From Dulcicalothrix desertica PCC 7102 (GTDB lineage: Bacteria; Cyanobacteriota; Cyanobacteriia; Cyanobacteriales; Nostocaceae): 64,000 nucleotides of DNA. The stretch spans positions 1 through 64,000 of the forward strand of contig NZ_RSCL01000015.1 of the NCBI RefSeq assembly GCF_003991905.1, read 5' to 3'. The first letter of the stretch is position 1; each line of letters begins with the position of its first letter. Positions 4,980 through 42,530 of the stretch are shown piece by piece. The translations under genes were made by a program, and so were the position numbers. Below the pieces are notes generated by a model. That model saw only the letters and a program-made list of their open reading frames with translations, was not told the origin of the DNA and made no database searches.

Positions 4980-5052
4980 GTGTGATTAGCTCAGTTGGCA
5001 GAGCATCCGAAGAATCGGCTGGACGAAGGTTCGAGTCCTTTATCATACACCA
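4980..5052 (+). tRNA. tRNA-like gene with defective anticodon arm (possible tRNA pseudogene), CCA encoded
   Basis: Perfect 7-bp acceptor stem GTGTGAT/ATCATAC, D-arm GCTCAGTTGGCAGAGC, T-arm GAAGGTTCGAGTCCTTT, ACCA 3' end. Only 20 nt lie between the D and T arms, with a 4-bp stem and 4-nt loop (CCGA-AGAA-TCGG), so no normal anticodon loop. Confidence 0.4.
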
Positions 5053-5125
5053 AAAAAGTTAGCTCATTAGGTAGAGCGGTCGGCGTTTAACCGATTGGTA
5101 GTAGGTTCGATTCCTACACTTTTAC
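5053..5125 (+). tRNA. tRNA-like gene abutting the previous one; anticodon loop CGTTTAA (TTT, Lys-like) but atypical (G33, A1:A72 mismatch, no CCA)
   Basis: D-arm GCTCATTAGGTAGAGC, anticodon stem GTCGG/CCGAT, T-arm GTAGGTTCGATTCCTAC; acceptor AAAAAGT/ACTTTTA has a first-pair mismatch. Confidence 0.35.
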
Positions 5126-5547
5126 CAACCCTGTCCGGGTCAAAAGACACTACTTTGAGGAAGTAGCTCCTACAAAAATGGAAAAAGGGAGAAATCCCAA
5201 AACGGTTCGATTCCGTTATTTTACAAACTCTGTGGTGCAGGTGCGCGTTTTTGCTTGTCATTCGTGGTGAGCTTTAATGCAACAGTGAAGGCGCCTGTGC
5301 GTTTACATTTTATCTGACTTGAGTATGCCCTTCATTTGTAACATCTAAGTTCTTTACAGAATTTGGAATTAGCAAATTGAACGGTATATGTGAGCGTTGT
5401 TTTCTTAACTGCCGAAAGGTACTTGAGTGACAATAATCTTAATCCAGTAGATAAATATGTATTTGTCCGCACCTTAACTGTAGACACTTGCACTTGCGGA
5501 GTTTATAATTATTTTTCATGTAGTATATATGCTACAAGTTATAAATT

Positions 5548-15810: not shown

Positions 15811-16534
15811 TCTCTACCTGAATATTAATAAGGTGTTCTAGATTGATGAGATAAAATATTCAATTTTGTCCAGATTAGCTCAAGCCCGCAGCGAATACAA
15901 ATTCTAGATGCACCCTGATTAATCTTTGCCTCAGCCCCTAGTGGGTTGAGGTTTTTATTATTTATATGTAAAGATAAAAAATCAAGAAATGAAATAAATT
16001 TTAAAGCAATTTAAATTTATTTACAAATAATTTTAAATATATAAAATTTACGCTTCATTTTCAAAATCACGGAGATAACGGTTAAAGTAAATTTCGCGTG
16101 AACTCATATCTTGCACTTACATTTTTTATGTAAGATTAATTGCTCAATTTGTAACTACGCTCATACCCGCCTAGGAATAGAAGTTCCTAGGCTAATAGCC
16201 AAAGTCCATTAAAATGGACTGAATAAATAGTCATATTAAACACATACTTTTTGAAAATTAATAATTTATTTCCATAAGTGAAAGATGTGAATAAATGTAT
16301 TGATTTAAATTGTTTCTGAAGTATCAAGTTAAGTAATCCTGGCTAACTTCAAAGTTGTTAGCTGGGATTATGCAATAGCACCACTAATTTGCCCTGTAAA
16401 AAAGGCTATCGCCATTAAGGGTAGTGATGAATTTAGAATGCTTTGGTATATATTTCATATATATCTATCTTAGGAGGAATTGTTACTCAAGCTACGCTTG
16501 TATATTGTAAGAAATCACTGATTGGAGGTTTATT

Positions 16535-16783
16535 ATGAACATAGAATTTTCTCTCTGTCCTATTGGTCGTATCTACATTCCACGTCCAGGTAACTTGCCC
16601 TCTGAGTTAGAGGACTTATTGAAATTAGTTGATGTTATGCATCGTCATAGGAATGTTACTTGGTTTAGAACTAAAGACTACTCTGTGTATAGAAGGTTAT
16701 CAGAATGGTATCCTCATCCTAGGTACTCTTTTACTTCCCAGATATACTTTCATGGTATTTCTACGTCAGATAACAGGTTCTAA
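16535..16783 (+). CDS. Hypothetical small protein (82 aa)
   Basis: Strong SD (GGAGG) 8 bp upstream of the ATG; no recognizable domain. Confidence 0.35.
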   Translation: MNIEFSLCPIGRIYIPRPGNLPSELEDLLKLVDVMHRHRNVTWFRTKDYSVYRRLSEWYPHPRYSFTSQIYFHGISTSDNRF

Positions 16784-17032
16784 TTATTACCGTTAATAGG
16801 TTACAATCTATTCTACTGACCGACAATACGCCTCTACTATAAATAAGTATATTTCTCCATCCTCTTCTGCCAGGTAAAACATAAGCTCTCCTCTTCATTT
16901 TTTTGTACCTGTTCGGTCTCATTGACTAGTTCTTGGCTTATACCTTCTAAATCTTGCATATATTCTCTTAATATTCCTCCAACGGAAATACCTCTAGTTT
17001 TGTGTAACTGTCGGGTTAACTCTAAAAACCAC

Positions 17033-17782
17033 TTAGCGTCTGCTACCAGGTCTGACTCTTATTACCTGATACTTAAGAATTTCTGGGATGATAATTTTAG
17101 GGTCTTGATGCTTTGCTATAGCACTGACATGAACAACAGGTTGATAGTTGACTCTTAAACATTGTTGCCATGTGTCTACCCACTTGGCTTGTGTAATGTA
17201 ACCATGACTAAAGTACGATGGGGGCGCCATTGCTAAAATGTGTAGGTGTGGGTGTGCTGATACTCCATCTTGCCCTCTAGTTACTTCGACTGACTTTATC
17301 CAACCTTTAAAACGCCAAATTTTTAACTCTGTTAAGCGTTTAAAGCTTTTGTTGATAAGATTTAAGGTTGACCGCAATTCTTTAATATCGCAGTTTTTTA
17401 GAGTTAATGTTATAAACAGCCACCGATGCTTAGGGTAATCACTTATAATCTGTGGAAGGATTTTACAGATTTTTGCTTTCCACATTAGACTACGGCGCCA
17501 CTGACAAACTGGACAATGACGAACCCTACAGAAGCGCGCGTCTGTTAGCTGTAGTTGAACTGTGCCTTCATCATCGTCTAACAAGTTAAACTCTAACCAT
17601 TTAGAGCAATTTTTTACTCGCCAAGCGTAACGAGCAAAACCATCTTCTTCTGCATCAGCATAATATTCAGAGATTTTTTGCGCGCTAGCTCTGTGCTTGT
17701 CCCAAATTTTACCAGCAACAGAGACATTAGAAAGCTTAAGTTTATTTTTTGTTTTTATTATAAGTTCTGGAGATAAGTCCAT
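17033..17782 (-). CDS. rep: Rolling-circle replication initiator protein, Rep_1 (pC194/pUB110) family HUH endonuclease
   Basis: Motif I WLFITLTLKNC (FxTLT), motif II AHPHLHILA (HUH), motif III EILKYQV (catalytic Tyr), plus CxxC (RHCPVCQW) upstream. Confidence 0.65.
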   Translation of the reverse strand: MDLSPELIIKTKNKLKLSNVSVAGKIWDKHRASAQKISEYYADAEEDGFARYAWRVKNCSKWLEFNLLDDDEGTVQLQLTDARFCRVRHCPVCQWRRSLMWKAKICKILPQIISDYPKHRWLFITLTLKNCDIKELRSTLNLINKSFKRLTELKIWRFKGWIKSVEVTRGQDGVSAHPHLHILAMAPPSYFSHGYITQAKWVDTWQQCLRVNYQPVVHVSAIAKHQDPKIIIPEILKYQVIRVRPGSRR

Positions 17783-18343
17783 CTATGAGATATATATGAT
17801 TACAATATATCTTCCTCTAAAATTTACTTACTGATTGCAGTATAATTACTGAAATTTAGATTATAAATAATCTAACATTGTCTAATTAAAGGACTTTATA
17901 ATACGATAGGCGCCAATTTCCAAATTTAATGACATGAAGCACGCTTTGGTCTGTGTTATTAGTTTTGCCAGGTTGGCGTATATCGTAAGGAGGGCATTGC
18001 CCACCCCACAACCGTCCAAAACTTATGACATATACCACTAGTAATAGCACTGAGTTTTTTTCAAGATGATAAAATTTATTGTTTGCCATATTACTTTAAT
18101 TTAAGTTGATTGAAAACCAGACTGTTCACTGTAGCGATATCTGTAAATATTATTATTTTTAAAAGTATTAAATAATCGTTGCCAGTGGACAATTATATCG
18201 TTATCTTGTGAGTTACTCTTTAATTGCAAGCCGATGAGAGATTCTATATTCCCGCGACTGTAAGACGCAGAAGTTGGAGGTTGATGTCTAGAATTAGCAA
18301 GAATTTCTACAAAAGTCGGCCATGCTTTTGTGACTCTAATAAA

Positions 18344-21300
18344 TTATTGTGGTGTACCTTGATTATGGCTTATTATTAATAGCTCATAATTATCTCCATA
18401 ATTAACCATTTTTTGCCATTCGTTTTTTGTAACATGTATGTAGTGTTTGTGATACGTAATTGCCTTAGCTTCTACTCTAATATTTTCTGCACCTTCTTGA
18501 GAGTAAAGTAAATCAAAGCCACTGCCATCGCGTGCTAGAATAGTGTATTCTAAAAATTCTTCATACAAACGTCTTGCCCAAAGTTCACCTATTTGACCGT
18601 ATCTTTCCGCATTTTCCCCAGAGCTTGGGCTATCATCGTTTTGATTTGGAATAGATATTAAAGAATTAGTAACCAAATTTTCGGTAACAGAATAGTTATC
18701 AGGTTCTTCAACTAAAGAATAATCTTCAGGATTTTCAATTAAGCTCGTAGAATTATCGTTTATATAAATAACTCCTTGATTGGTAACTGGCAGAACGCAA
18801 TTAATACCAAGTTCTGCAAGTAATGAAACAACTATTTCAGTCTCTACGTTTGATTCTCCTTTTAAATTTTCTAATGCTTTATAAGTATCAATCTTTTCAG
18901 CGAGTTGATTTAGGTCATTAGCTGTGATATAAGGTTTGCGAGCAATATTAGCTATAGCATCAAGTTTATCCGGAGGAGCTTGCAAAACATCAAAAATATT
19001 ATTTCTAACTTCGTCATTGCCCAAGGTTTGCAAAACTAATTCAGCCCGACGTTGAAAGAAGTAAGTAAATAATTTTTCAAATTTTTTTTCTACTATCGAA
19101 TTAGACCAATGCAAGAGTTGTTGTACAACTTGCCTAAAATTGTTATCTTCCTTATCACCTTCATAATCACGGATGGCATTATCAATTTCATTAGCAATAT
19201 CTTCAAGTGTTACAATCTCTTTTACGTCAATTATCTGTCGTGCTTTTGTGAATGAATCGTTTTTTAATAGAAGGAAATCATTCCAATCCTGTAACCTTAG
19301 ATAACGTGCAATTTCTTTCAGTTCTTCTGGTATACCTCCATCTCTTTTTAAAGATTTTTTTAATTTAAAATCTTCGTTTTGAGTTGGAAGAATTGCATAT
19401 TTATCAAATAGTGTATAATCAATTGTATTAACGAAACATAGGAAATTATTGAGCCAACTTGTTGTTAGCTCTTTAGTTTGGGATAAAAAGCTTGCAAGAG
19501 TAGTTAACCTGCTTGCTTGTGCTACCTCTTCAACAATAGCAATTATTATCCATTTGTTACATTCCTCCCAGTCAAATTCTTCTAAATTATCTATTTCTAC
19601 TTTGTCTGGAATCGCTTGATTATAGATATCGCGCGCAAATTGCCAAATTTTTAAGCGATTTACTTCTCTACTGCCAAATTGAAAGTAGCTAATTAAGTTA
19701 TAAATAGCTCGTTTAAAGTCTTCGCTTTGGTCTCTACCTTTACCTCTAATAATATCGTTAATTTCCTTCGAGTTGTTAGCAACACGATATTGCTCTAAGC
19801 TTTTATCAAAATTTAATATATTTCGATGTAAAAGTCTACTTCTGCAAGAAGCGTTTAATCTTTCCAAAACATCTTTTAACTGTTCAGGTACGTTTTTATC
19901 AAAAAGTAATTCTGCTTTTTTACGAAAAACTCCTTGTTGGTTAGGGAAGATAGCTATTTCGCTATACAGTGATTGTTTTTTATTAGCTTTAAGAAAGTTA
20001 ATAAAACTGCTTAACCAATTAATACTTTCTAACTCTGTAGTTTTTCCTAAATTTGTGTGTAATGTAATAACATCTTGGTACTGGGCGATATCTTGAATTA
20101 AAGTATTTAAAAGCCACTCGTCATTAATATCCCAGAGAGAAGGAGTCCAATCAAATAATTTCTTAATTTCAGGCACATTATTATCTAAAGCTTTTGCAAA
20201 CTGCCAAATTTGGATTCTCTTTTCTAAGAAATCAGTTTTAATAGCTTTTTTGTTGCTTTCGCTGTTGGGAAGATAACTAGCTAATAGGTAAGCTGCATCT
20301 CTTAAATTGGGATGTGCTTTTTCTGTAAAAATGGCGCCGATACGTTCGGATATATTACGTGTGCTGTAACTTCTTTCTAGTTTAGAATTTACATTTAAGT
20401 GTAATAGTTCCTGCTTCCAATCTTCGCCAAGTATAAAAAGAACTTCTTTTAACCCATCAGGAATATTTTCATCTAATCGCAATTGAGTTCTTAATTGGAA
20501 TACTCCGTACTGGTTTGGTAAGATAGCATACTTGTTATCCAAAAGTTCAAGTTGCTTAGATTCAATAATAAAGCTGATAACCCTGTTTAACCAAGTTAGA
20601 GTATTAGTATCTCTCAAACCGAGCCGAGCAGATAAATTTTCTAAAGTTTTTTGTTCGCTAATCTCAGCGAGCAACCTTTGTAAATTATATCGCAGTTCTT
20701 TTGGATAACGATTATCAAGCCCAATAACTTCGCTCCATTCTTTTATATCCTGTCTTTGAGGTAACTTAGAAGAATGAAGGAATGCTGTAATTTCCCAAAA
20801 TTCTAAAAGATTTTTATTGTTATATTCGGGAATTAAAGCATCTTTCAACTTGATATTTACCCCCTCATTGGTACGAACAATTTTACTTTCAAGTACTTTA
20901 GCTCTAATAAAACTTTGAATATGTGATTCATACCATTCGGAATCAATATTTTTTGGTAATTCTGCCAAAGCCAATAAGTGAGGGTTTAACCAATTTTGTG
21001 CTGCGTAATCTAATAAAATACCGTAAAGTGATATGGTTTCTTCAAAAATTGCTCTATTTTTTTTACCACCAGTCTCATTTCTATCGTCAAGCAATATACT
21101 GTCTCTAGGTTCAGTTGGCTCCAATAATGGACTGTTAATTACTACCGGATACTTGAATTTAGTTTCAGAGCCAATTAAAGGGAAATCGCAAAATAGAAGT
21201 GGTGCAGAGGAATTAAGCTTAACAACAGAATATTGATTATTTATTTGTTCTAGCTGAATGGCGATACTTATCTCACCTTGTTCATCGGCTAAGTTAATGG

Positions 21301-22138
21301 TTTTTGAGCAATTTGCAATAATTATTTTTTCTATTTGGTCATCAACGTGCTTTTCTATATGCGATATTGTTATTTCTTCTAGTTTTTCGCGATTTTGAAT
21401 ATAATAAGATGTCTTTGTTGATTTTGTTTCATCTTTAACTATTACAGATTCTAGTTCAGGGATGAAAACAAGGGTATATATAATTGCATTGTGTAAATCT
21501 TCAATTCCTTTTTGAGCAACTTTAAATCCTTCTTTATTAAGCCGGTAACGAAATGATGTATCACAAGTTTGGTATAGCTGATAATCAGGAGGTAAAGTAG
21601 GACATATGTTTTTATCGTCTAGATGGCGCCGAATATCAGAAGCTTTTTTGACTGCTTCAATCATTTCTTCGATTGTTGCAGCACTTCTATCTAAATTTAA
21701 ATTAAATCGCTTATAAATTTTACATTTTGGATCTTCAAATATACTACTTAACTGAACTACTTTAGATAGTAAGTGGGTGGTCATAAAACCTGTACCAAAC
21801 TTACCAGTAGTTCTGACTTTATTACTATCGCTTTGATTTTCTGTAGGTTTATTACTATTTCTATCTTTTGTTGAAACTTGTTCAATTAAATATGTAATAT
21901 TTTTCATCAAGAACGGCTTACCGTTATGCTTGAACTCAAGATAGTCTTGATTCAAAATTATTTCTACTTTAACCTGATTATGAGCAACATCTTTAGCGTT
22001 TTGTAAAAGCTCCCAAATCCAACGCCGGGGTGATGACTCGCTACTATATAACCTACGAATACCGTCAAATAGTTTAGTTGCTGTTTGCTGTCGGTGAGCA
22101 TTTTCTAACTCGTCACGATACTCTTGTTCGTAAGTCAT
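18344..22138 (-). CDS. Large multidomain protein: N-terminal sacsin/GHKL-like ATPase, three internal repeat modules, C-terminal PD-(D/E)xK nuclease-like (DUF3883-type) domain
   Basis: 1264 aa; ELLQNAKDV and GKFGTGFMTTH motifs (Bergerat fold as in sacsin). Three paralogous modules (YAILPNQYGVFQLR...IPDGLKEVL / IAIFPNQQGVFRKK...VPEQLKDVL / YAILPTQNEDFKLK...IPEELKEIA). C-terminus GFDLLYSQEG...IRVEAK fits D...(E)xK. Confidence 0.6.
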   Translation of the reverse strand: MTYEQEYRDELENAHRQQTATKLFDGIRRLYSSESSPRRWIWELLQNAKDVAHNQVKVEIILNQDYLEFKHNGKPFLMKNITYLIEQVSTKDRNSNKPTENQSDSNKVRTTGKFGTGFMTTHLLSKVVQLSSIFEDPKCKIYKRFNLNLDRSAATIEEMIEAVKKASDIRRHLDDKNICPTLPPDYQLYQTCDTSFRYRLNKEGFKVAQKGIEDLHNAIIYTLVFIPELESVIVKDETKSTKTSYYIQNREKLEEITISHIEKHVDDQIEKIIIANCSKTINLADEQGEISIAIQLEQINNQYSVVKLNSSAPLLFCDFPLIGSETKFKYPVVINSPLLEPTEPRDSILLDDRNETGGKKNRAIFEETISLYGILLDYAAQNWLNPHLLALAELPKNIDSEWYESHIQSFIRAKVLESKIVRTNEGVNIKLKDALIPEYNNKNLLEFWEITAFLHSSKLPQRQDIKEWSEVIGLDNRYPKELRYNLQRLLAEISEQKTLENLSARLGLRDTNTLTWLNRVISFIIESKQLELLDNKYAILPNQYGVFQLRTQLRLDENIPDGLKEVLFILGEDWKQELLHLNVNSKLERSYSTRNISERIGAIFTEKAHPNLRDAAYLLASYLPNSESNKKAIKTDFLEKRIQIWQFAKALDNNVPEIKKLFDWTPSLWDINDEWLLNTLIQDIAQYQDVITLHTNLGKTTELESINWLSSFINFLKANKKQSLYSEIAIFPNQQGVFRKKAELLFDKNVPEQLKDVLERLNASCRSRLLHRNILNFDKSLEQYRVANNSKEINDIIRGKGRDQSEDFKRAIYNLISYFQFGSREVNRLKIWQFARDIYNQAIPDKVEIDNLEEFDWEECNKWIIIAIVEEVAQASRLTTLASFLSQTKELTTSWLNNFLCFVNTIDYTLFDKYAILPTQNEDFKLKKSLKRDGGIPEELKEIARYLRLQDWNDFLLLKNDSFTKARQIIDVKEIVTLEDIANEIDNAIRDYEGDKEDNNFRQVVQQLLHWSNSIVEKKFEKLFTYFFQRRAELVLQTLGNDEVRNNIFDVLQAPPDKLDAIANIARKPYITANDLNQLAEKIDTYKALENLKGESNVETEIVVSLLAELGINCVLPVTNQGVIYINDNSTSLIENPEDYSLVEEPDNYSVTENLVTNSLISIPNQNDDSPSSGENAERYGQIGELWARRLYEEFLEYTILARDGSGFDLLYSQEGAENIRVEAKAITYHKHYIHVTKNEWQKMVNYGDNYELLIISHNQGTPQ

Positions 22139-22578
22139 AGTATTTTACCCTGTTTATGCTAAAAGTACTGGTAATTATTTTCGCTATGCTTAGTATTCCC
22201 AGAAATATGTAGAAACTAAACCTGGGCAGAGCAACTTTATCGAAATTAATGTTATTAATGTCAATTCTTCTCTAGCTTGGTCGCGACAGTATGTTGGCAT
22301 ATATTCCTGTATAAGTTTTAACTTAAAATCATTATTCCATACAGTTAGGATACCCACGATTAGAACGAAACTAACCTTGTGATAAGAAGCGGCGCCTTTG
22401 TAGCAAGTGTATGATTTCTAAGACTTGCTTTCTATAAATGATTTAATTTCACTTACCGTTTTATGACTGTTAATCATTGCCTGTACTGCCGTTACTTTAT
22501 TCCTGGGTATTGACAACGAGCGTCCTTTCCATTCGCCGTTTTCTGAAACCTCATATGAATATGCCCAATACTAGTGTT

Positions 22579-23031
22579 CTAATTTGTTTGGGTCACGTTC
22601 ACCTTAAGAGCATCTACAGTTATGAATCTTACGCCAACAATAGGAGCGATTTCTGTTGCAACGTACTCCAGTGCCCATTCTACTAAGCAGCGACCAACTC
22701 CTTTTGCCCTTTGGTCAGCAGCTAACAAGCCTATTTTTATCGCTGGGAAAGTTTGATACTGCACGCCTTCTTGAATCAAGATTTGCTCGTCAACTTCTAG
22801 CTTATCTGCCAGTAAAGTTATATATCCAGCTAGCGCATCACCAACACGAATAATCCAACACTGGCTAATTAAAGCATTTACTTCACGTTGTACTCGTCCC
22901 TGTCGCCAGTAGGTTACAAACTCACCTCGCAAACACCTAAAACCCTGACCAGGAACATCCAAATCAGGGGTTAGCTTTTCGACATCAATCTGAGAGAAGT
23001 CAACTCCGGCAAATTTACTGCTGGCTGCCAT
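22579..23031 (-). CDS. GNAT family N-acetyltransferase, toxin-like (TacT/AtaT/KacT-type)
   Basis: About 150 aa from MAASSKF; acetyl-CoA binding region QRAKGVGRCLVEWALEY; its start ATG overlaps the stop of a small upstream ORF (ATGGCAGCCAGCAGTAA). Confidence 0.55.
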   Translation of the reverse strand: MAASSKFAGVDFSQIDVEKLTPDLDVPGQGFRCLRGEFVTYWRQGRVQREVNALISQCWIIRVGDALAGYITLLADKLEVDEQILIQEGVQYQTFPAIKIGLLAADQRAKGVGRCLVEWALEYVATEIAPIVGVRFITVDALKVNVTQTN

Positions 23032-23188
23032 TAGCTGCTTGTTTCTGACGACGACGCTCGGCAATCTTTTTTGATAAAGCAATAGCTGTTTCATTTGCTA
23101 CATAGCCACCTGACATAATCGCATGAGCTATTTTTCTAGCTTCATCACCAGTTACCCGTTGAGATACAGTACCAAGAGGATAATCCAT
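23015..23188 (-). CDS. Putative antitoxin (small RHH/DUF1778-like protein, 57 aa) translationally coupled to the GNAT toxin
   Basis: ORF MDYPLGTVSQRVTGDEARKIAHAIMSGGYVANETAIALSKKIAERRRQKQAANGSQQ found by hand on the minus strand (below the 60-aa track cutoff); 4-codon overlap with the GNAT gene. Confidence 0.4.
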   Translation of the reverse strand: MDYPLGTVSQRVTGDEARKIAHAIMSGGYVANETAIALSKKIAERRRQKQAANGSQQ

Positions 23189-23337
23189 ATAAGCTTGATA
23201 TACACTTTTTCTAGTATAACAGTTTTGTAAATGGTTATAATGCTAACAAATATAAATTTACAGGTGCCTTTAATAGTTCTAGTTTTTATAAAAGAAATGC
23301 TGAAAACCCTGTCCTTTTAAGGCAGGGATGAAAGCTG

Positions 23338-23372
23338 TATGAAGCCTTTTAAAGCTTCATATTTTTTTTTAA
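23338..23372 (+). terminator. Rho-independent terminator-like hairpin TATGAAGC-CTTTTAAA-GCTTCATA followed by T9
   Basis: Read directly; no annotated plus-strand gene upstream, which suggests an unannotated small RNA or an orphan terminator. Confidence 0.4.
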
Positions 23373-23761
23373 TTCTGTGGTAAGATTTTATAGTCAGTAC
23401 AAGACGTTAAAACCTACCCCTGGACTGAGGGAAAGTAGACGCCTGTTCGCGAAGCGTGCCGAAGGCATAAAACCTTGAGGAGACATCAGCACGCTCAATT
23501 TTGAGCAAACGTGTTGAGCCTGGGAACCCAAAATACAAGGCAAGTCCCTGAATCTGGGATACGGCACAAGATAGACTGAAATGAGCCGTGAATCTCTGCT
23601 CCTAAAGGACACCGAGAGTCAAAAGCGAGAAAAGAGTGTTTTTCATTGCTTAACTTTTCGCGCTTAATTTCTGATTTATTCGCGCTTAACTTTTTCTTGT
23701 GTTGAGGCAGGCAGGGATGCATGCTCCACAAGATTGTTAATTGTTAATTGTGATGTTGCTG

Positions 23762-32799: not shown

Positions 32800-33577
32800 T
32801 AGTATTAGCAGAAATATTCGGGTCTGCTGACCAAGGGTTTTTATAGAATCTAAATTTTTGTTTAAGAACTAACCAGAAGAATGGCGCCACATCGAGCAAA
32901 TACCTCTTCCAGAGTCGCTGGGGTTCAGCGGAAAGTCTATATAACCACTCTAGACCAGCTTGACTCATCCACCTTGGCGCCCGTGTTATTGTTCCTGCTT
33001 CAAAATTGATGGTGGCGCCTATTGCTAAGAAAATTTTGATGTTATTTAATTTATGTCTATACTTATAAATCCACATTTCTTGCTTAGGGGCGCCTACTCC
33101 AATTGCTAGAACTGTTGCTCCTGAGTCATTAATTAACTCTATTATATTTTGACATTCTTCTTCGTTTTTCTCAAATCCCATTGGTGGGGAATAAGTTTCA
33201 ATAACGATATTACGCCCTACCTTGGAGTTGATATTACGCTGGGCAGTATATCCAACTTCTCCAATTCCTCCTAACAAAAATATTTTGATATCATCGTCAT
33301 CTCTATAATAATTATAGAAAGCTGGAAATAAATCTGAACCTGAGATTTTTTCTCGAATGGGTATACCTAAAAACTTAGATGTGAACATCAAAATTTTACT
33401 ATCGCAAACTATGTAATCTGCTTTTTGATAAGCATGATAAAAATCTAAGTTTTTTTGTAGCTTAATTAGATGGTCTACATTAGGAGTAAATACAATACCA
33501 CCAAATTTTAGTTTTTTGAGTAACTGATACATTGTTATGTTATCAATAGTCAAATTAAATAGTTGAACTCGATTCAT
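32771..33577 (-). CDS. WecB/TagA/CpsF family glycosyltransferase (N-acetylmannosaminyltransferase-like)
   Basis: 268 aa; C-terminal GLEWLYRLSAEPQRLWKRYL signature of the family. Confidence 0.8.
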   Translation of the reverse strand: MNRVQLFNLTIDNITMYQLLKKLKFGGIVFTPNVDHLIKLQKNLDFYHAYQKADYIVCDSKILMFTSKFLGIPIREKISGSDLFPAFYNYYRDDDDIKIFLLGGIGEVGYTAQRNINSKVGRNIVIETYSPPMGFEKNEEECQNIIELINDSGATVLAIGVGAPKQEMWIYKYRHKLNNIKIFLAIGATINFEAGTITRAPRWMSQAGLEWLYRLSAEPQRLWKRYLLDVAPFFWLVLKQKFRFYKNPWSADPNISANTIAEYERARL

Positions 33578-33756
33578 TGCCTTATTATATAATTAAGTAG
33601 TTATTTGAGAAAGCAAAAGACAGAGAGCAGTAGCGAATCATTATGAACTTTAAAGGGTTCAATCAGCAGGCTTTATTTCTAAGCTTTGTGTATTGATTGT
33701 GGGGTGGGCAAAAATGCCCACCCATATTTGTTTGAGCTTAAAAAATGTTCATATTT

Positions 33757-34716
33757 CTACTTTTGTTTGGTAAAATGAGTTATCATATTAAGTTTTACCA
33801 ACATTGTTTGGTCTAAAATGTCTAAAATAGTGCTATCAGTGTTCATATCAAATTTACGTGCAAAATAATATTTATTTTGTTGTATCAAAGTATAATCATC
33901 CTTGGTTAGGGTTGCAGGGCTACCATAACGAGATTGAGAAAAATCTATGTAATGTTTAGATTCATTCGATAACTTGAACAGTTGATTGTTGACTAGTACA
34001 GTATGAATAAAAGATTCTTCAGGGTTGATTACATATTTATAATGCTCAAGAAGATCGGGATGCTTTTGAGTAAAATCATGTATATATTTAAGGCATTTTT
34101 TAGACAGAATACAAAAATAAGAACCTCCATAACAAATAAATTCATCATTAAATGGAGATTTAACTCTGCTTCCTATCATCAAACCATAAAAGAAATGAAT
34201 TCGCAAAACAGGTTGTAAGTAATTCAAAAATTTTAATGGTTTTAATAGTGATAGAAACCATTTAGGTAAAATTTTTGAAAGTGTATAATATTTATACAAG
34301 TATCTATCACACCCTTGTCGAATATTCCATAAAGCTTCTTTAGAAAATACTTTAAAGTATTGTATGTAAGCATCATAACTAGTTCTAGATAATAGGTTTT
34401 CTAACTCTGAAATAGGTTGAGTTGGATAATCTTGTCCAGTTAGATTCACAAACCAGTCAAACTCTAGATTATTACTTAATATCCACTTAACAGTTGATAG
34501 ATATTCTCTTAAAATCGAAAAATCTCCTCTTCCTGTTATTACATTGAATAAATGAATTTCTGAATATTCTTTTAATCTAGACATATCTAAAGTACAAGAA
34601 ACCGGATTGTGACTTAATATAATTATCGAGTTCGGGCTAGTACTTTTGATATTGCGAACAAGGCGATATATTTGCTCTGGGTTTTTGTAAGTTTGAATTA
34701 AGAAACAGATTTTCAT
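33757..34716 (-). CDS. Glycosyltransferase family 14-like (core-2/I-branching enzyme type)
   Basis: Begins MKICFLIQTYKNPEQIYRLVRNI, the hallmark GT14 N-terminus. Confidence 0.5.
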   Translation of the reverse strand: MKICFLIQTYKNPEQIYRLVRNIKSTSPNSIIILSHNPVSCTLDMSRLKEYSEIHLFNVITGRGDFSILREYLSTVKWILSNNLEFDWFVNLTGQDYPTQPISELENLLSRTSYDAYIQYFKVFSKEALWNIRQGCDRYLYKYYTLSKILPKWFLSLLKPLKFLNYLQPVLRIHFFYGLMIGSRVKSPFNDEFICYGGSYFCILSKKCLKYIHDFTQKHPDLLEHYKYVINPEESFIHTVLVNNQLFKLSNESKHYIDFSQSRYGSPATLTKDDYTLIQQNKYYFARKFDMNTDSTILDILDQTMLVKLNMITHFTKQK

Positions 34717-34782
34717 ACTCTAAACGTCTTGTGATTGATGAAAAATTAATAGGGAAGTAAAGAAAATCAGATATTAATATAA

Positions 34783-34826
34783 AGAAACCGGGTTTTTTTA
34801 AAGATTTTGCATAAAAACCCGGCTTC
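34783..34826. repeat. GAAACCGGGTTTC-family element (short copy 3)
   Basis: AAGAAACCGGGTTTTTTTAAAGATTTTGCATAAAAACCCGGCTTCTGG. Confidence 0.55.
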
Positions 34827-34835
34827 TGGCTAAGG

Positions 34836-35813
34836 TCAAGTTGATAATTCTGGTTTACGGAAAGTGGCTTTTAGAGGGTTTAAGAACCAGAGCAGATAAG
34901 CTGCAACACCAGTTAATAAAGTCTTACCTGGTTCTTCTAACAGAATGTGCCAATGATTAATCAGAACAAGGTTAAATAGTTTGGCGGCAGTTATTCCGTC
35001 ACCTAAGCTCACTAGACGACGCACTGTATAACGCATATGATAAGCCTTTGCAGCTTTTTCACAGTGCGCGATGATATCTGGAGCATAGGAACGAGTTTTT
35101 TCTACTACTGTTTCTAATGCTTCTAGTTGTTGTAAAGCGTTTGCAGAGAGTCCGGACGTAGTTATCCGGTACAAAGTCAACACTTCTGGAATTCCTTCGT
35201 GGCGCCAGTGAGTCAGAATAGAGATTCGTAACCAACATTCGATATCTTCAGCACGACGCAAACGCTCATCAAAATAATAGTTTTCGGCGATGCCATACAC
35301 ATCGTCTTGAAACTCAATACCTTGAAATACTTCACGTCTGATTACGGCAGCTGAACCATTACCAACAGGATTACGACAAAGTACATATGATGGTGTAATG
35401 TCATAGAGTTTTCGCGGTTTCTGATAAAGTCCTGTAAGATTACCTTCTTCATTAATAAACGCGGAATAGCAAAAACTAATTCCTACAGTTGGTGAATTAT
35501 CCAAATGATTGACATGTTTTTCCAGCTTGGTGGGCAACCAGATATCATCAGCATCTAAAAAAGCTAAATAATCTCCTTGAGCATGACGAATACCTGTATT
35601 CCTAGCTCCTGGTAATCCCCTATTCGCTTGATGGATAATCTTGATTCTTGGGTCAGTAAACTGCTGACACACTTCTACGCTACGGTCTGGAGAACCATCA
35701 TCGATAATTAAAATTTCAAAATCCTTATAAGTTTGTGCTAGTACAGACTCAATCGTAGCTGCAATATATTTTTCAGCATTGTAGAGGGGAATAATTACCG
35801 ATACTTTTTTCAT
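34836..35813 (-). CDS. Glycosyltransferase family 2 (paralog 1)
   Basis: MKKVSVIIPLYNAEKYI...IIDDGSPD...DADD GT-A motifs. Confidence 0.8.
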   Translation of the reverse strand: MKKVSVIIPLYNAEKYIAATIESVLAQTYKDFEILIIDDGSPDRSVEVCQQFTDPRIKIIHQANRGLPGARNTGIRHAQGDYLAFLDADDIWLPTKLEKHVNHLDNSPTVGISFCYSAFINEEGNLTGLYQKPRKLYDITPSYVLCRNPVGNGSAAVIRREVFQGIEFQDDVYGIAENYYFDERLRRAEDIECWLRISILTHWRHEGIPEVLTLYRITTSGLSANALQQLEALETVVEKTRSYAPDIIAHCEKAAKAYHMRYTVRRLVSLGDGITAAKLFNLVLINHWHILLEEPGKTLLTGVAAYLLWFLNPLKATFRKPELST

Positions 35814-35871
35814 CTTAAGGAACCTGTGTAAACTTCTAATAGCTGCAAAAATTCGTAATTTAGTGATTAAT

Positions 35872-36801
35872 TCATAATTTACTCATATTCAAATTGGGTA
35901 TAAAATATCTTGAATATACGGCGAGCAAAGTTAAAAGAGTTCTACGAGGTTCTTTAAAAATCAATTTCCATTCTGAACGAAGCGCACGATTCATAAAATT
36001 GATGCCAATTTCAGACGAAAGGTGTAAACGCAGTGTTCTTCTGGCTAAATAGCGTAGAAGTAAAGCTTTTGCATGGTTATAATGTGTCTTCACTAATTCA
36101 GGTGCATAAGCTTGTACTTTGGAATTGACTCGACTCCATTCTTCTTCCATTCGGTAAAGCTGGGAAGACATTCCTCCTAAATTGGTTCGGTAAAGTACTA
36201 ATACTTTGTCAATACCTTCTACTTGCCAACCATGACAGCAAACTCGTAAAAACAACTCAGCATCCGCAAATCCACTTAAATCTAGATCAAAACCTCCTAC
36301 TTGCTGTAAAGCGACTCGACGAATTACAGCATTTGATGGAGTTACAGCAGGATTCTCTTCATATAATTTTTTGGAGGTAAGGTCTTTAAAGCAAGGATTT
36401 GAATACTGTCCAGTCGGTGTGCCATCAAAATTCATAAATTCAACTCTTCCAAAGCTCATACCAAGAGTTGGGTTTGCGCTTAAATGTTGAACATGAATTG
36501 CAAGCTTTTGTGGCAACCATAGATCATCTGCATCAAGAAACGCAATAAATTCTCCTTGAGCCATTTTGATTCCTGTATTTCTTGCTGCTGAGACTCCTTG
36601 GTTTTCCTGTCGAATTATTTGAATTCTAGAATCATTAAATTGCTGACAAATTTGTATACTCTGGTCAGGAGAACCATCGTCAATAATCAAAACCTCAATA
36701 TTTTTATAGGTTTGCAATAATACAGATTCAACTGTTGTCGCAATATACTGTTCCGCATTATACACGGGAATGATTATGGAAACTTTTTTCATTTTTTGCA
36801 C
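35872..36801 (-). CDS. Glycosyltransferase family 2 (paralog 2)
   Basis: VSIIIPVYNAEQYI...IDDGSPD...LDADD; C-terminus NFMNRALRSEWKLIFKEPRRTLLT shared with paralog 4. Confidence 0.8.
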   Translation of the reverse strand: MQKMKKVSIIIPVYNAEQYIATTVESVLLQTYKNIEVLIIDDGSPDQSIQICQQFNDSRIQIIRQENQGVSAARNTGIKMAQGEFIAFLDADDLWLPQKLAIHVQHLSANPTLGMSFGRVEFMNFDGTPTGQYSNPCFKDLTSKKLYEENPAVTPSNAVIRRVALQQVGGFDLDLSGFADAELFLRVCCHGWQVEGIDKVLVLYRTNLGGMSSQLYRMEEEWSRVNSKVQAYAPELVKTHYNHAKALLLRYLARRTLRLHLSSEIGINFMNRALRSEWKLIFKEPRRTLLTLLAVYSRYFIPNLNMSKL

Positions 36802-36817
36802 TATTAAAAAATTGAAA

Positions 36818-37753
36818 TTAGTTCTTTAAAGATATAAGCTTTTTGACAATTTGAGGTGTGAACAATTTCATGATTGACCATTTGAAAATGTAGAATATTG
36901 TAACTGTATCTAGAAGATACTTTGGGTTTAAAGATATCGCTGTCCATAGCTTTTGACCAACTATATTAATATGACTGCTGTTTTTAACATGTGCAAAGTA
37001 TGTTGCCGCTAGGTAATGATATAAGGCTGCTAATGTTTGATTTTTGAGGTATTGTAAATGTGATGGCACAGATTGGTAGATAATTTCTAATGTCATTAAA
37101 AGATTTTGTTCCATGACGGCAACTTTTGATGTTGCTGATGATGGTGATTGACGGTAAAAAACTTGTTGTTTAGGAATGACAGCAAACTTGTATTTTGCAG
37201 CTAATCTAATGTAAAATTCCCAGTCTTCGCCATATTTTAAGTTAACGTTGAATCCTCCTATTTCATCGACACATTCTTTACGCATAAGGGGAGTTGAACC
37301 ATTCTCTAAAAAGTTTACGATGAGTAAATCTTGATAAACGTTTCCTTCTATAAATACGCGGGCGCCGGAATGAAACTTTTTTCCGGTTTCATCCATTTGT
37401 GAAGTCCAACTGTAAACTACCCCAATATCGGGGTTTGCTTTGATGGCAGCGAGTTGAAGTTCTAGTTTATCGTTTGTCCATAGGTCATCTGCATCTATAA
37501 ATGCTATGTATTCGCTTTGTGCAGCTTTTATTCCTTTGTTACGAGCGGCTGATACTCCTTCATTTTGGGATGAAATAATTTTTAATCGCGGTTCTTTTAT
37601 TTTTTCAAGGACTAATTGAGTGTCATCGGTCGAGCCATCGTTGATGACGATAATTTCAAAGTTGCTGAAGGTTTGCTCTTGAATAGATTTAATTGTTTCT
37701 AAAATTGTTTTTTCTGCATTGTAAGCAGGAATAATTACTGTTATTTCTGGCAT
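36818..37753 (-). CDS. Glycosyltransferase family 2 (paralog 3)
   Basis: ITVIIPAYNAEKTI...INDGSTD...IDADD; tail LNPKYLLDT shared with paralog 5. Confidence 0.8.
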   Translation of the reverse strand: MPEITVIIPAYNAEKTILETIKSIQEQTFSNFEIIVINDGSTDDTQLVLEKIKEPRLKIISSQNEGVSAARNKGIKAAQSEYIAFIDADDLWTNDKLELQLAAIKANPDIGVVYSWTSQMDETGKKFHSGARVFIEGNVYQDLLIVNFLENGSTPLMRKECVDEIGGFNVNLKYGEDWEFYIRLAAKYKFAVIPKQQVFYRQSPSSATSKVAVMEQNLLMTLEIIYQSVPSHLQYLKNQTLAALYHYLAATYFAHVKNSSHINIVGQKLWTAISLNPKYLLDTVTIFYIFKWSIMKLFTPQIVKKLISLKN

Positions 37754-37892
37754 CTTTTATTATTCAATTTACTATTATTTTGCTACTCACACCTGAACTG
37801 TAAACAATAATACTATAGAAATCCTAAATTCTTTTTGAAAAAATCTAGTATATGTAAGGTGGGCACTGCCCACCCTACGTGGTGTTCAAAAA

Positions 37893-38837
37893 TCAAATAG
37901 GAATTCTATAGTTAGTTGAAACAATAATATTTGAGATAACATTTTTAATGTAAACAGCTAACATCGTTAAAATTGTTCTTCGAGGTTCTTTGTAAATAAT
38001 TTTCCAATCAGTTTTTAACGCACGGTTCATAAAATTAACTCCCATATGTGAAGAAATTTGATTACGCAATGTCCTCCTTGCCAAATAACGTAAGAAGAAA
38101 GCTCTTGCTCGTTGATAATGTTTATTAACAAGCTCTGGAGCATACGTTTCAACTTTAGCGTTGAATTTTTTCCAATCTTCTTCCATACGGTAAAGATTTG
38201 ATGACACACCGGCTGGATTTGTACGATAGCGTACTAAAGCTTTATTGATTCCTTCAACCTTCCAACCTTTGTATGCAACTCGCAAGAATAATTCAGCGTC
38301 TTCTGTTCCACTCAGGTTTGAATCAAAATTTCCAACGCTGTCAATAACAGTACGACGAACTACGGTATTAGATGGAGTAACTATTAAATTTTCATAATAC
38401 AAATCTTTGGGCGTAATTTGGAACAGTTGTGAATTTGATAATTTACCAGTAGGTTTTCCATTAAAACTCATAAACTCTATTCTTCCAAAACTAATACCCA
38501 AATTTGAAGATTTTGCAAAATGCTGCATGTGTACCTCCAATTTATTAGGTAACCATTGGTCATCGGAATCTAAAAAAGCAATATATTCTCCTTTTGCAAT
38601 TTGAAGACCTTGATTCCTAGCATAAGAAACTCCCTGGTTTTTTTGGCAGAATAATGTAATACGAGTATCTAGTTTGCAGTAATGGTTCACAATTTCAGAA
38701 GTATTATCTGTAGAACCATCATCAATGATAAGTAATTCAAAGTCATTAAAGGTCTGAGCTAAAACAGATTCTATGGTTGTAGCTATGTACTTAGATGAAT
38801 TGAATGCGGGCATGATAATGCTAATAGTGACGCTCAT
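37893..38837 (-). CDS. Glycosyltransferase family 2 (paralog 4)
   Basis: ISIIMPAFNSSKYI...IDDGSTD...LDSDD. Confidence 0.8.
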   Translation of the reverse strand: MSVTISIIMPAFNSSKYIATTIESVLAQTFNDFELLIIDDGSTDNTSEIVNHYCKLDTRITLFCQKNQGVSYARNQGLQIAKGEYIAFLDSDDQWLPNKLEVHMQHFAKSSNLGISFGRIEFMSFNGKPTGKLSNSQLFQITPKDLYYENLIVTPSNTVVRRTVIDSVGNFDSNLSGTEDAELFLRVAYKGWKVEGINKALVRYRTNPAGVSSNLYRMEEDWKKFNAKVETYAPELVNKHYQRARAFFLRYLARRTLRNQISSHMGVNFMNRALKTDWKIIYKEPRRTILTMLAVYIKNVISNIIVSTNYRIPI

Positions 38838-38873
38838 AGATATTTCGATATAGTAGTGATACGGTGATAAATT

Positions 38874-39863
38874 TTAAGAGTTTCTTAATCTTGGGTCGCT
38901 GATTGCTTTTACACTACTAATAAATTTCATAATGTTTGAAGCATTTTTAGGAGTGAGTAGCCATATTAAAAGTAATTTAACTACTAATACTTGAGTATTC
39001 TTTCGCAATAGATTAAGTGGATTTAAGCAAATACCTTTCCATAATCTAATACTTGCTTTTTGAACTGCATTTTCAGTATTGATTTGATTGAAATATAGTT
39101 TACTTGTATATTGATATATATTAGAAATACCTTGACTTTTCAGGTATTGTAGTTCTAGAGGCGCCGATATAAAGGCTCTTTCCAATACTAAAAGTAAATA
39201 TTTTTCCATCACATCAACTTTGCTAGACATACCACCTAAAGACAAGCGATAGATGATTTGTGGTTTGGGTACAACGACGAATTTCCAGTTAGGTGCCAGT
39301 CTTAACCAGTAATCCCAATCCTCACAAGATTTAAGAGTGATATCAAATTCACCAACTGATTTTACTGCTTCAGTACGTATTAATACATTTGAGCCACTAG
39401 CAATAAAATTATTGACTAGCAAATGCTTATAAACATTACCTTCAAAACTGGCTTTGACACCCTGATGAAAATGCTTTCCTGCATTATCTACGCATATAGT
39501 CCAACTGTATGCGACACCTGCTTCCGGTGACTTTTTAAAAGCTTCTAGTTGTAATTCTAACTTATCATATGTCCATAAGTCATCTGCATCAATAAATGAA
39601 ATATACTCACCTGTCGCATGAGTTATACCTCTATTACGAGCCATTGATAAACCGCCATTTGGGTAAGAAAAAACTTGCAACCGAGAATCTTTTACTTCAT
39701 TTATAAGTTCTAATGTTTCATCTGTAGAACCATCGTTAATAAGAATTAATTCTAGATTAGAATAGGTCTGTTCTAGAACTGAATTTATTGTTTCTCTAAT
39801 TGTTTTCTCAGCATTGTAAGCAGGAATAATAACAGAGACTTTTGGTGTGGTTGTAATGTTCAT
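38874..39863 (-). CDS. Glycosyltransferase family 2 (paralog 5)
   Basis: VSVIIPAYNAEKTI...INDGSTD...IDADD. Confidence 0.8.
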   Translation of the reverse strand: MNITTTPKVSVIIPAYNAEKTIRETINSVLEQTYSNLELILINDGSTDETLELINEVKDSRLQVFSYPNGGLSMARNRGITHATGEYISFIDADDLWTYDKLELQLEAFKKSPEAGVAYSWTICVDNAGKHFHQGVKASFEGNVYKHLLVNNFIASGSNVLIRTEAVKSVGEFDITLKSCEDWDYWLRLAPNWKFVVVPKPQIIYRLSLGGMSSKVDVMEKYLLLVLERAFISAPLELQYLKSQGISNIYQYTSKLYFNQINTENAVQKASIRLWKGICLNPLNLLRKNTQVLVVKLLLIWLLTPKNASNIMKFISSVKAISDPRLRNS

Positions 39864-39898
39864 ATATATTGAAATTAAATTGATTATTGTTTAATTAC

Positions 39899-41191: not shown

Positions 41192-41199
41192 TACTTTTG

Positions 41200-42501: not shown

Positions 42502-42530
42502 TTTATTACCTCTTTATTAGTAGTTAATAT

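What the first reader, a model, noticed from the sequence alone, without database searches (positions are those of the whole stretch)
18344..22138. 1264-aa sacsin-like GHKL ATPase with triplicated modules and a C-terminal PD-(D/E)xK nuclease, next to a Rep gene and a toxin-antitoxin pair: candidate uncharacterized defense protein
The N-terminus has ELLQNAKDV and GKFGTGFMTTH, the Bergerat-fold ATP-binding motifs of the sacsin/HATPase_c_3 clade. Three clearly paralogous internal modules follow (YAILPNQYGVFQLR...IPDGLKEVL, IAIFPNQQGVFRKK...VPEQLKDVL, YAILPTQNEDFKLK...IPEELKEIA). The last 90 aa (GFDLLYSQEG...IRVEAK) fit a restriction-endonuclease fold of the DUF3883 type. ATPase + nuclease single-protein architectures in islands with plasmid and TA genes are typical of anti-phage or anti-plasmid systems, but I cannot name a characterized system this protein belongs to. 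It is the single largest ORF in an AT-rich, repeat-flanked islet.
Basis: partly seen in the sequence, partly recalled or inferred. Interest (0 to 1): 0.78.

Follow-up and report, generated by a model that had tools for sequence, protein, structure and literature searches.

The report
Tiamat-type defence gene, recently broken
The large gene belongs to Tiamat, an already named family of single-gene anti-phage defence proteins (an ATP-driven clamp fused to a DNA-cutting domain), and this copy carries a recent premature stop codon inside a decaying plasmid-derived insert, so it is an ordinary and probably disabled example.

Summary
The ORF at 18344..22138 (-) is real and so is most of its described anatomy. 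It has a sacsin/Hsp90-type GHKL ATPase, three paralogous ~188-aa modules and a C-terminal NOV_C (DUF3883) PD-(D/E)xK nuclease.

The family already has a name. The PADLOC model TmtA (Tiamat, PDLC03967) matches at E=1.5e-182. The experimentally verified Bacillus cereus TmtA belongs to a different Tiamat model (PDLC03964), so defence by this branch is inferred, not shown.

The frame continues for 80 more conserved codons to 18101. dN/dS after the stop is 0.20, against 0.22 before it, so the mutation is recent. It appears in two deposited assemblies of Dulcicalothrix desertica PCC 7102. It removes the last strand of the nuclease fold and a C-terminal extension.

The neighbouring Rep_1 gene is frameshifted. 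The "toxin-antitoxin pair" is not supported by HMMs. A sister genome (Calothrix sp. HK-06) lacks the 5.9-kb segment that carries the gene. The closest orthologue sits next to an intact Rep_1.

Verdict: a new, probably inactivated member of a known defence family whose mechanism is still unknown. The copy-number-variable module and the swappable effectors in this branch are the only moderately novel points.

The parts
18101..22138 (-). Whole TmtA-like (Tiamat family) gene: 1345 codons interrupted by one in-frame stop at codon 1265
   Evidence: It is colinear over 4038 nt, without indels, with the intact 1345-aa orthologue P0002 (locus L090), at 89.7% nt identity. PADLOC TmtA PDLC03967 matches at E=1.5e-182.
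18344..18346 (-). Premature in-frame TAA (orthologue has GAA, Glu1265)
   Evidence: The same 1264-aa product appears in two deposited assemblies (RUT02694.1 and TWH39072.1).
20699..22138 (-). Residues 1-480: GHKL (Bergerat) ATPase domain plus transducer/middle domain. Motif I ELLQNAKDV is at 21986-22012 and the Gly-rich lid motif GKFGTGFMTTH at 21773-21805
20129..20695 (-). Repeat module 1 (residues 482-670)
   Evidence: It is confidently folded in model 1. It has no Pfam family and no PDB fold match.
19565..20122 (-). Repeat module 2 (residues 673-858)
18989..19561 (-). Repeat module 3 (residues 860-1050)
   Evidence: pLDDT is above 90 in the model of the orthologue.
18614..18988 (-). Helical and then disordered linker (residues 1051-1175)
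   Evidence: In the model of P0002 860-1345, residues 1117-1174 have pLDDT below 50. This region has the highest dN/dS of the gene, 0.40.
18347..18613 (-). NOV_C / DUF3883 PD-(D/E)xK nuclease core (residues 1176-1264; candidate catalytic D1209, E1223, K1225 and E1240)
18104..18343 (-). 80 codons cut off by the stop: last beta-strand and helix of the nuclease domain plus a clade-specific C-terminal extension
   Evidence: The frame stays open and is colinear with the tails of P0002 to P0009. The stop corresponds to model residue 406, just before strand 403-410 and helix 413-423. dN/dS is 0.20, against 0.22 for the body of the gene.
16837..17782 (-). Rep_1 rolling-circle replication gene, frameshifted (pseudogene)
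   Evidence: Pfam Rep_1 at E=3e-60, covering only profile positions 2-175 of 253. tblastn with the Planktothrix plasmid Rep aligns residues 24-241 in frame -1 and residues 245-314 in frame -2. The public annotation gives it as 249-aa and 70-aa pieces. It is intact in HK-06 (311 aa) and in L090 (315 aa).
17859..23761 (.). 5.9-kb segment (TmtA gene plus GNAT-like pair) that the sister genome Calothrix sp. HK-06 lacks; there, 246 nt separate the TPP-enzyme gene from the Rep region
   Evidence: blastn of L010 against the window: the flanks are 90-96% identical and this segment is missing.
22579..23188 (-).
   Evidence: Pfam Acetyltransf_10 at E=0.11, below threshold. No NCBIfam hit.

Best explanation
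What it is. This is a member of the Tiamat (TmtA) family of single-gene anti-phage defence proteins, in the branch that PADLOC models as PDLC03967. It lies on a small AT-rich, plasmid-derived (Rep_1) islet in the chromosome of Dulcicalothrix desertica PCC 7102.

Shown here. The protein has five parts in order: (1) a sacsin/Hsp90-like GHKL ATPase with its transducer domain; (2) three tandem copies of a ~188-aa module specific to this branch; (3) a flexible linker; (4) a NOV_C PD-(D/E)xK nuclease; (5) a clade-specific C-terminal extension.

Inferred mechanism. GHKL enzymes such as Hsp90, MutL, MORC and Topo VI-B dimerise through their N-terminal domains when they bind ATP. Here that clamp closure would bring together the two nuclease domains, which resemble the dimeric Hjc and type II restriction enzymes, and switch on nicking or cleavage of DNA. 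The repeat modules would be the part that recognises the invader or controls the switch. The outcome would be destruction of phage or plasmid DNA, or abortive infection.

State of this copy (shown). A recent G-to-T change turns Glu1265 into a stop. It removes the final strand and helix of the nuclease domain and the 80-residue tail. The adjacent Rep gene is frameshifted. The element is decaying and the defence gene is probably weakened or dead.
For: Family. PADLOC TmtA PDLC03967 matches at E=1.5e-182, with weaker matches of the ATPase and nuclease ends to three other TmtA models. The N-terminal ~400 residues of the verified B. cereus TmtA also match PDLC03967 at E=1e-13, and the pairwise BLASTP to our protein gives 25% identity at E=1e-4. 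Millman et al. annotate Tiamat as 'Hsp90, DUF3684, DUF3883'.

Single-gene and mobile or defence context. There is no conserved neighbour. Neighbours include an R-M pair, McrBC, integrases, relaxase with ParAB, and PemK or PIN toxins.

Effector swapping within the branch. C-terminal domains include two nuclease types, a non-nuclease tail and a caspase-like domain. This is typical of immune proteins.

NOV_C as an effector. A NOV_C domain is an experimentally shown nickase required for defence in HmaA (PMC11232893).

Pseudogenisation. See for the stop, and for Rep.

Islet. See for the GC trough, for absence from HK-06, and for linkage to an intact Rep_1 in the closest orthologue's locus.
Against: No member of the PDLC03967 branch is known to me to have been tested. 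The only verified Tiamat gene (B. cereus FORC_005, 1590 aa) is a distant relative, and a second Tiamat gene that was tested (Enterobacter, PDLC03968 type) gave no protection.

The PCC 7102 genome was in Millman's database, but this gene is not in their Tiamat list.

Pfam DUF3684 and Pfam HATPase_c_3 do not match.

The adenine-contacting Asp of the canonical DxGxG box is His71 here (sequence H-N-G-K-P), so ATP binding is expected but not certain.

The mechanism (dimerisation, nuclease activation, what is sensed) is wholly inferred. I found no paper on Tiamat's mechanism.

The truncated product keeps all candidate catalytic residues, so residual activity cannot be excluded.
Confidence: 0.72

Rival explanations
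1. The gene is still a working defence gene. [quoted passage not shown]
For: D1209, E1223, K1225 and E1240 all precede the stop. The Limnospira clade lacks most of the 80-residue tail, so most of the tail is dispensable for the family. The body of the gene shows purifying selection (dN/dS 0.22).
Against: The stop falls just before a beta-strand that all NOV_C-bearing relatives keep, including the short Limnospira forms (LKLLNIKL). The Pfam match stops at profile position 85 of 91. The dN/dS estimate covers the whole divergence from the orthologue and cannot show selection since the mutation. The neighbouring Rep gene has also decayed.
Confidence: 0.2
2. The protein is not an immune protein. 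It would be a plasmid- or element-encoded maintenance or DNA-processing factor, or a sacsin-like chaperone, that travels with the Rep_1 element.
For: It is linked to Rep_1 both here and in the closest orthologue's locus. It is related to sacsin and Hsp90, which are chaperones. This branch has no experimental defence data.
Against: The Rep linkage is limited to the two closest copies. Other orthologues have unrelated neighbours. The sister genome keeps an intact Rep without this gene, so Rep does not need it. The family swaps C-terminal effectors between nucleases and a caspase-like domain, which fits immunity better than maintenance. One homologue sits inside an R-M/McrBC cluster.
Confidence: 0.06
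3. The stop codon is an assembly or laboratory-culture artefact, and the natural gene is intact.
For: It is a single-base change. The downstream frame is open for 80 codons in 32% GC DNA, and dN/dS there is unchanged.
Against: The same 1264-aa protein is deposited from two assemblies (RUT02694.1 and TWH39072.1). I could not verify that the underlying reads are independent. A mutation fixed in the culture-collection strain would still be real for this genome.
Confidence: 0.08

Closest known systems
Tiamat defence system, TmtA (verified: Bacillus cereus FORC_005, IMG 2641244160; Millman et al. 2022, preprint 10.1101/2022.05.11.491447)
   Same: Both are single-gene systems with an N-terminal Hsp90/sacsin-type ATPase, a long middle region and a C-terminal DUF3883/NOV_C nuclease. 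Our protein matches a PADLOC TmtA model at E=1.5e-182, and the verified protein's N-terminus also matches that model at E=1e-13.
   Different: The verified protein is 1590 aa and belongs to PADLOC model PDLC03964. It is only 25% identical to ours over 215 residues. Our branch (PDLC03967) has 2 or 3 copies, and up to 9, of a 188-aa module. It has no detectable Pfam DUF3684 and no experimental test. This copy carries a premature stop.
Sacsin (human SACS; SR1 structure 5V44; SIRPT repeats)
   Different: There is no ubiquitin-like, DnaJ or HEPN domain. This protein has one ATPase unit. Its effector is a DNase-type fold. Sacsin is a eukaryotic chaperone, not an immune nuclease.
Dimerising GHKL clamp ATPases (ParE/GyrB, Topo VI-B, MORC, SMCHD1, MutL, Hsp90)
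   Different: Sequence identity is only 8-17%. The G1 box reads H-N-G-x-P instead of D-x-G-x-G. The repeat modules and the nuclease have no counterpart in these enzymes. ATP-driven dimerisation is assumed by analogy, not shown.
NOV_C nuclease of HmaA (Hma defence system) and archaeal Hjc resolvase
   Different: In HmaA the domain is fused to a Snf2 helicase rather than a GHKL ATPase. Here the domain is cut before its last strand.
Arabidopsis NO VEIN (source of the NOV_C name)
   Same: [quoted passage not shown] From memory, not tested here, NOV also has a sacsin-like ATPase region, which would give it the same overall architecture.
   Different: It is a eukaryotic developmental nuclear protein. 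I made no comparison with it.

Membership tests
Tiamat (TmtA) | Significant match to a curated TmtA HMM | tested here: met
   PADLOC PDLC03967 matches at E=1.5e-182 (607.6 bits). The best stretch is residues 1-617 against profile positions 1-596 of 1063. Weaker hits go to PDLC03968, 03971 and 03965.
Tiamat (TmtA) | Single-gene system with no conserved partner gene | tested here: met
   Nine homologue loci have unrelated neighbours.
Tiamat (TmtA) | N-terminal Hsp90-like ATPase | tested here: met
   NCBIfam NF047352. The model gives Hsp90, sacsin, MORC and MutL fold matches.
Tiamat (TmtA) | Central DUF3684-like region (annotation by Millman et al.) | tested here: not met
   Pfam PF12449 does not match at E<=1. 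The central region is three copies of a branch-specific module with no Pfam family. Millman et al. list 'DUF3684' in their domain annotation; a more sensitive profile-profile (HHpred-type) search could not be run here, so the difference may be one of sensitivity.
Tiamat (TmtA) | C-terminal DUF3883/NOV_C nuclease | tested here: met
Tiamat (TmtA) | Demonstrated protection against phage | not testable with these tools
   Only the B. cereus protein (PDLC03964 type) is verified. An Enterobacter protein (PDLC03968 type) gave no protection. I found nothing for the PDLC03967 type.
Tiamat (TmtA) | Intact reading frame | tested here: not met
   In-frame TAA at codon 1265 of 1345.
GHKL (Bergerat-fold) ATPases | Motif I ExxxNxxD, with the catalytic Glu and the Mg-binding Asn | tested here: met
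   E43, N47 and D50 are invariant in 46 homologues.
GHKL (Bergerat-fold) ATPases | Motif II DxGxG, with the adenine-binding Asp | tested here: inconclusive
   The sequence is F-K-H71-N72-G73-K-P-F. The Asp is replaced by an invariant His. The verified TmtA has N-N-G-N-P-F.
GHKL (Bergerat-fold) ATPases | Gly-rich ATP lid GxxGxG and the overall fold with a transducer domain | tested here: met
Sacsin family | Sacsin-type N-terminal ATP-binding domain | tested here: met
Sacsin family | Three SIRPT repeats plus DnaJ and HEPN domains | tested here: not met
   There is one ATPase unit and no DnaJ or HEPN Pfam match.
PD-(D/E)xK nucleases | [quoted passage not shown] | tested here: met
Type II toxin-antitoxin (GNAT/RHH type) for the neighbouring pair | Significant GNAT toxin and antitoxin domain matches | tested here: not met
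   Best match is Acetyltransf_10 at E=0.11. The 57-aa ORF matches nothing.

The most novel reading that the evidence does not exclude
The PDLC03967 branch of Tiamat is built around a previously undescribed ~188-aa module with no Pfam family and no PDB fold match. Its copy number varies from 2 to 9. It is combined with interchangeable C-terminal effectors (two PD-(D/E)xK types, a caspase-like protease and an unknown domain) and, in giant relatives, with two or three ATPase units in a sacsin-like layout. On this reading the module is the invader-sensing element of an Hsp90-like immune clamp, and eukaryotic sacsin and NO VEIN descend from such bacterial immune proteins.
Probability: 0.2. Interest if true: 0.6.

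Novelty: new member of a known kind. Interest (0 to 1): 0.3.

Why it matters
For this locus it matters little. A standard defence-annotation tool would label the gene as Tiamat, and this copy is probably disabled.

It has some value as a worked example. Tiamat is a heterogeneous collection of nine HMM branches, and only one of them has experimental support. The branch found here has a modular design: an ATPase clamp, a variable number of an unknown module and swappable effectors. That design could guide mechanistic work on a defence system whose mode of action is still unknown.

The three-way comparison (PCC 7102, Calothrix sp. HK-06 and the metagenomic orthologue locus) also shows a small Rep_1-associated hotspot where defence cargo is gained, lost and decays.

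Tried and rejected
- PDB sequence searches with the single protein and with a 46-sequence profile found nothing.
- A search with the 399 N-terminal residues of the verified TmtA returned only fragments of 666 aa or less. Its full sequence is cut off in the stored supplement. A full-length comparison with the verified protein was therefore not possible.
- Literature searches for a Tiamat mechanism found only surveys.
- The Pfam scan of the modules gave only scattered chance-level hits.
- The promoter and terminator scan around the gene was uninformative: fewer sites than in shuffled sequence.
- No tRNA gene lies near the islet that could serve as an integration site.
- I considered and set aside that the 31-nt direct repeat (17866-17896 and 22849-22879) marks the ends of the insertion. 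It is barely above chance. Its right copy lies inside the GNAT-like ORF and does not coincide with the breakpoints seen against HK-06 or L090.
- I rejected the TA-pair claim as unsupported, not disproved.
Full report
**Source and ORF.** The window comes from Dulcicalothrix (Calothrix) desertica PCC 7102. The ORF product is 100% identical to the deposited protein 'hypothetical protein DSM106972_056140', which RefSeq calls WP_127083888.1 'DUF3883 domain-containing protein'. The ORF at 18344..22138 (-) exists as described, 1264 aa with an ATG start. It lies in a GC trough of 0.31-0.33 between flanks of 0.39-0.45.

**Checks on the described anatomy.**
- The motifs ELLQNAKDV (residues 43-51) and GKFGTGFMTTH (residues 112-122) are present.
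- Pfam's HATPase_c_3 does not match. NCBIfam's 'sacsin N-terminal ATP-binding-like domain' does, at E=2.7e-18 and above its cut-off.
- An AlphaFold model of residues 1-670, built on 61 homologues, is confident (pLDDT 88, pTM 0.80).
- Foldseek finds Hsp90, GRP94 and TRAP1 across the N and middle domains (E=4e-8).
- E43, N47, D50, H71, G112, G115, G117, T121 and the middle-domain R345 are invariant in 46 homologues, and N72 is kept in 45 of them.
- The canonical DxGxG box reads H-N-G-K-P, as in the sacsin/TmtA type. ATP binding is therefore likely but not certain.

**The triplicated module.** Residues 482-670, 673-858 and 860-1050 align pairwise at 25-34% identity, with E from 4e-11 to 2e-18. 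Each matches a module HMM at about 1e-60. The module has no Pfam family and no convincing PDB fold match.

Module number explains the two size classes in the family. Proteins of about 1040 aa have two modules, and proteins of about 1260-1345 aa have three. A profile of the module finds 973 cluster representatives among 1.84 billion proteins. These usually have 2-5 copies, and giant proteins have up to 9.

The closest homologues (55-87% identity) are 1311-1345 aa long. They continue past the query's end with '...PQE[F/L]IRV...'. In the window, codon 1265 is TAA where the orthologue has GAA. The same frame then runs for 80 more codons (FIRVTKAW...SGFQST) to a stop at 18101-18103. The window gene and the orthologue gene are both 4038 nt, colinear, and 89.7% identical.

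dN/dS is 0.216 before the stop and 0.202 after it, so the tail was under selection for almost the whole divergence. The mutation is therefore recent. The truncated product appears in two deposited assemblies.

In the model, the stop falls just before a beta-strand and a helix that complete the nuclease domain. Even the short-tailed Limnospira relatives keep that strand. The catalytic residues are retained, but the fold is clipped. I consider loss or weakening of function more likely than not.

**Family assignment.** PADLOC's TmtA model PDLC03967 (Tiamat) matches at E=1.5e-182. Table S2 of the Millman et al. preprint lists Tiamat as a single gene annotated 'Hsp90, DUF3684, DUF3883'. It was verified for Bacillus cereus FORC_005 (1590 aa), and an Enterobacter homologue was tested without protection.

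PADLOC holds nine TmtA models. The verified protein's N-terminus fits PDLC03964 (E=1e-138) and matches PDLC03967 only at 1e-13. The Enterobacter protein fits PDLC03968. Our protein, its Limnospira relative and a two-module relative all fit PDLC03967. Direct BLASTP of our protein against the verified N-terminus gives 25% identity at E=1e-4.

The PCC 7102 genome was in Millman's database, but this gene is not in their Tiamat table. Other cyanobacteria are listed there. So the gene is a Tiamat member by the current HMM definition, but in a branch without experimental support. I found no paper on Tiamat's mechanism.

**Context at this locus.**
- Immediately downstream lies a Rep_1 rolling-circle replication gene. 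It is 55% identical to the Rep of a 4.5-kb Planktothrix plasmid, but it is frameshifted and annotated in two pieces.
- The sister genome Calothrix sp. HK-06 has flanks that are 90-96% identical. It has an intact 311-aa Rep placed 246 nt from the TPP-enzyme gene. It lacks the whole 5.9-kb segment 17859-23761, which carries the TmtA gene and the two small ORFs.
- The closest orthologue's locus (L090, a metagenome assembly) has an intact TmtA gene, an inserted S10 peptidase gene and an intact Rep_1. It has the same continuation towards the Bax1-I side.
- This site is therefore a small variable hotspot tied to a plasmid-derived Rep. In PCC 7102 both the Rep gene and the defence gene are decaying.

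**Context of more distant homologues.** They are solo genes in varied mobile or defence settings.
- One is beside an Eco29kI restriction-modification pair, McrBC and a PLD-SNF2 protein, on a contig with ParAB, a relaxase and an integrase.
- One is with an integrase, a PemK toxin and a PriCT_2 primase.
- One is with PIN, DUF29 and DUF4160 genes.
- Others lie among housekeeping genes.

**Unsupported parts of the finding.** The 'TA pair' is unsupported: the best match is GNAT at E=0.11 and there is no NCBIfam hit. The 'repeat-flanked' claim rests on one 31-nt repeat with 26 of 31 matches. Simulated sequences of the same composition reached that value once in 30 runs.

**Mechanism (inferred).** GHKL enzymes with this fold dimerise through their N-terminal domains when they bind ATP. 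PD-(D/E)xK nucleases of the Hjc and type II restriction kind act as dimers. A NOV_C domain is a nickase required for abortive-infection defence in HmaA (PMC11232893). I therefore propose an ATP-gated clamp that brings two nuclease domains together on DNA after a trigger is sensed, most plausibly through the repeat modules.

Three observations support a sensor-plus-effector logic.
- The C-terminal domain varies within the branch: two nuclease types, a non-nuclease tail, and a caspase-like domain in P0189.
- The ATPase and the modules are conserved.
- The linker between modules and nuclease is disordered and fast-evolving.

**Verdict.** The family is already named, however, and this copy is a recently truncated member on a decaying islet. 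The novelty is limited to features of the branch: a copy-number-variable unknown module, effector swapping and sacsin-like multi-ATPase giants.

Noticed in passing
window 16837-17782 (-): The Rep_1 rolling-circle replication gene is a pseudogene. Its frame shifts from -1 to -2 near 17058-17069. It is intact in Calothrix sp. HK-06 (311 aa) and in the orthologue locus L090 (315 aa).
   Followed up: yes
window 22254-22375 (to about 22522): A ~122-nt stretch just upstream of the TmtA gene has 82-89% identical copies on three large Calothrix plasmids (AP018291, AP018292 and AP025019). No second copy occurs in this window. It may be a small dispersed repeat or mobile-element remnant. Homology with the orthologue locus L090 ends at 22265, inside this stretch.
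   Followed up: partly
P0168 (3119 aa), P0193 (3113 aa), P0177 (2265 aa), from the module profile search: Giant relatives carry 6-9 copies of the 188-aa module. P0168 has three sacsin-type ATP-binding domains and P0177 has two, an arrangement that recalls the three SIRPT repeats of eukaryotic sacsin. P0193 was not scanned for ATPase domains.
   Followed up: partly
P0189 (1679 aa): A member of the same TmtA branch carries a caspase-like (EACC1-associated type) C-terminal domain instead of the nuclease. Other members have a different D...ExK nuclease or a non-nuclease 'ELWI...ITLG' tail. The effector is therefore swappable.
   Followed up: partly
L010 12977-13958 (Calothrix sp. HK-06): In the sister genome, the space between Rep and the Bax1-I gene holds ORFs of 79 and 232 aa, apparently fragments of one gene, possibly a transposase. 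I did not scan them. They replace window 15975-16848. This is further evidence that the site is a variable hotspot.
   Followed up: no
L090 4833-6308: In the closest orthologue's locus, a Peptidase_S10 gene (2.4 kb) is inserted between the TmtA gene and Rep. The window has only 205 nt there.
   Followed up: no
P0008 (Calothrix sp. NIES-4071, 1167 aa): This 63%-identical homologue lacks about 160 N-terminal residues, including the ATP-binding motifs; its module positions are shifted by 160. It may be another truncated copy or a mis-called start.
   Followed up: no
window 4980-5126 (+): ARAGORN reports a tRNA-like gene with an undetermined two-base anticodon directly abutting a tRNA-Lys(UUU).
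   Followed up: no
window 47158-51048 (-): A second very large ORF (1296 aa) has no Pfam match at E<=1e-5. ORFs at 42531-43931, 52853-54019 and 59038-60879 also have none.
   Followed up: no
window 33000-44000: A second AT-rich stretch (GC 0.30-0.35) holds a run of same-strand genes for polysaccharide synthesis: a family 2 glycosyltransferase, a Branch-type enzyme and a Polysacc_synt flippase. It appears to be an ordinary surface-polysaccharide cluster, unrelated to the finding.
   Followed up: partly
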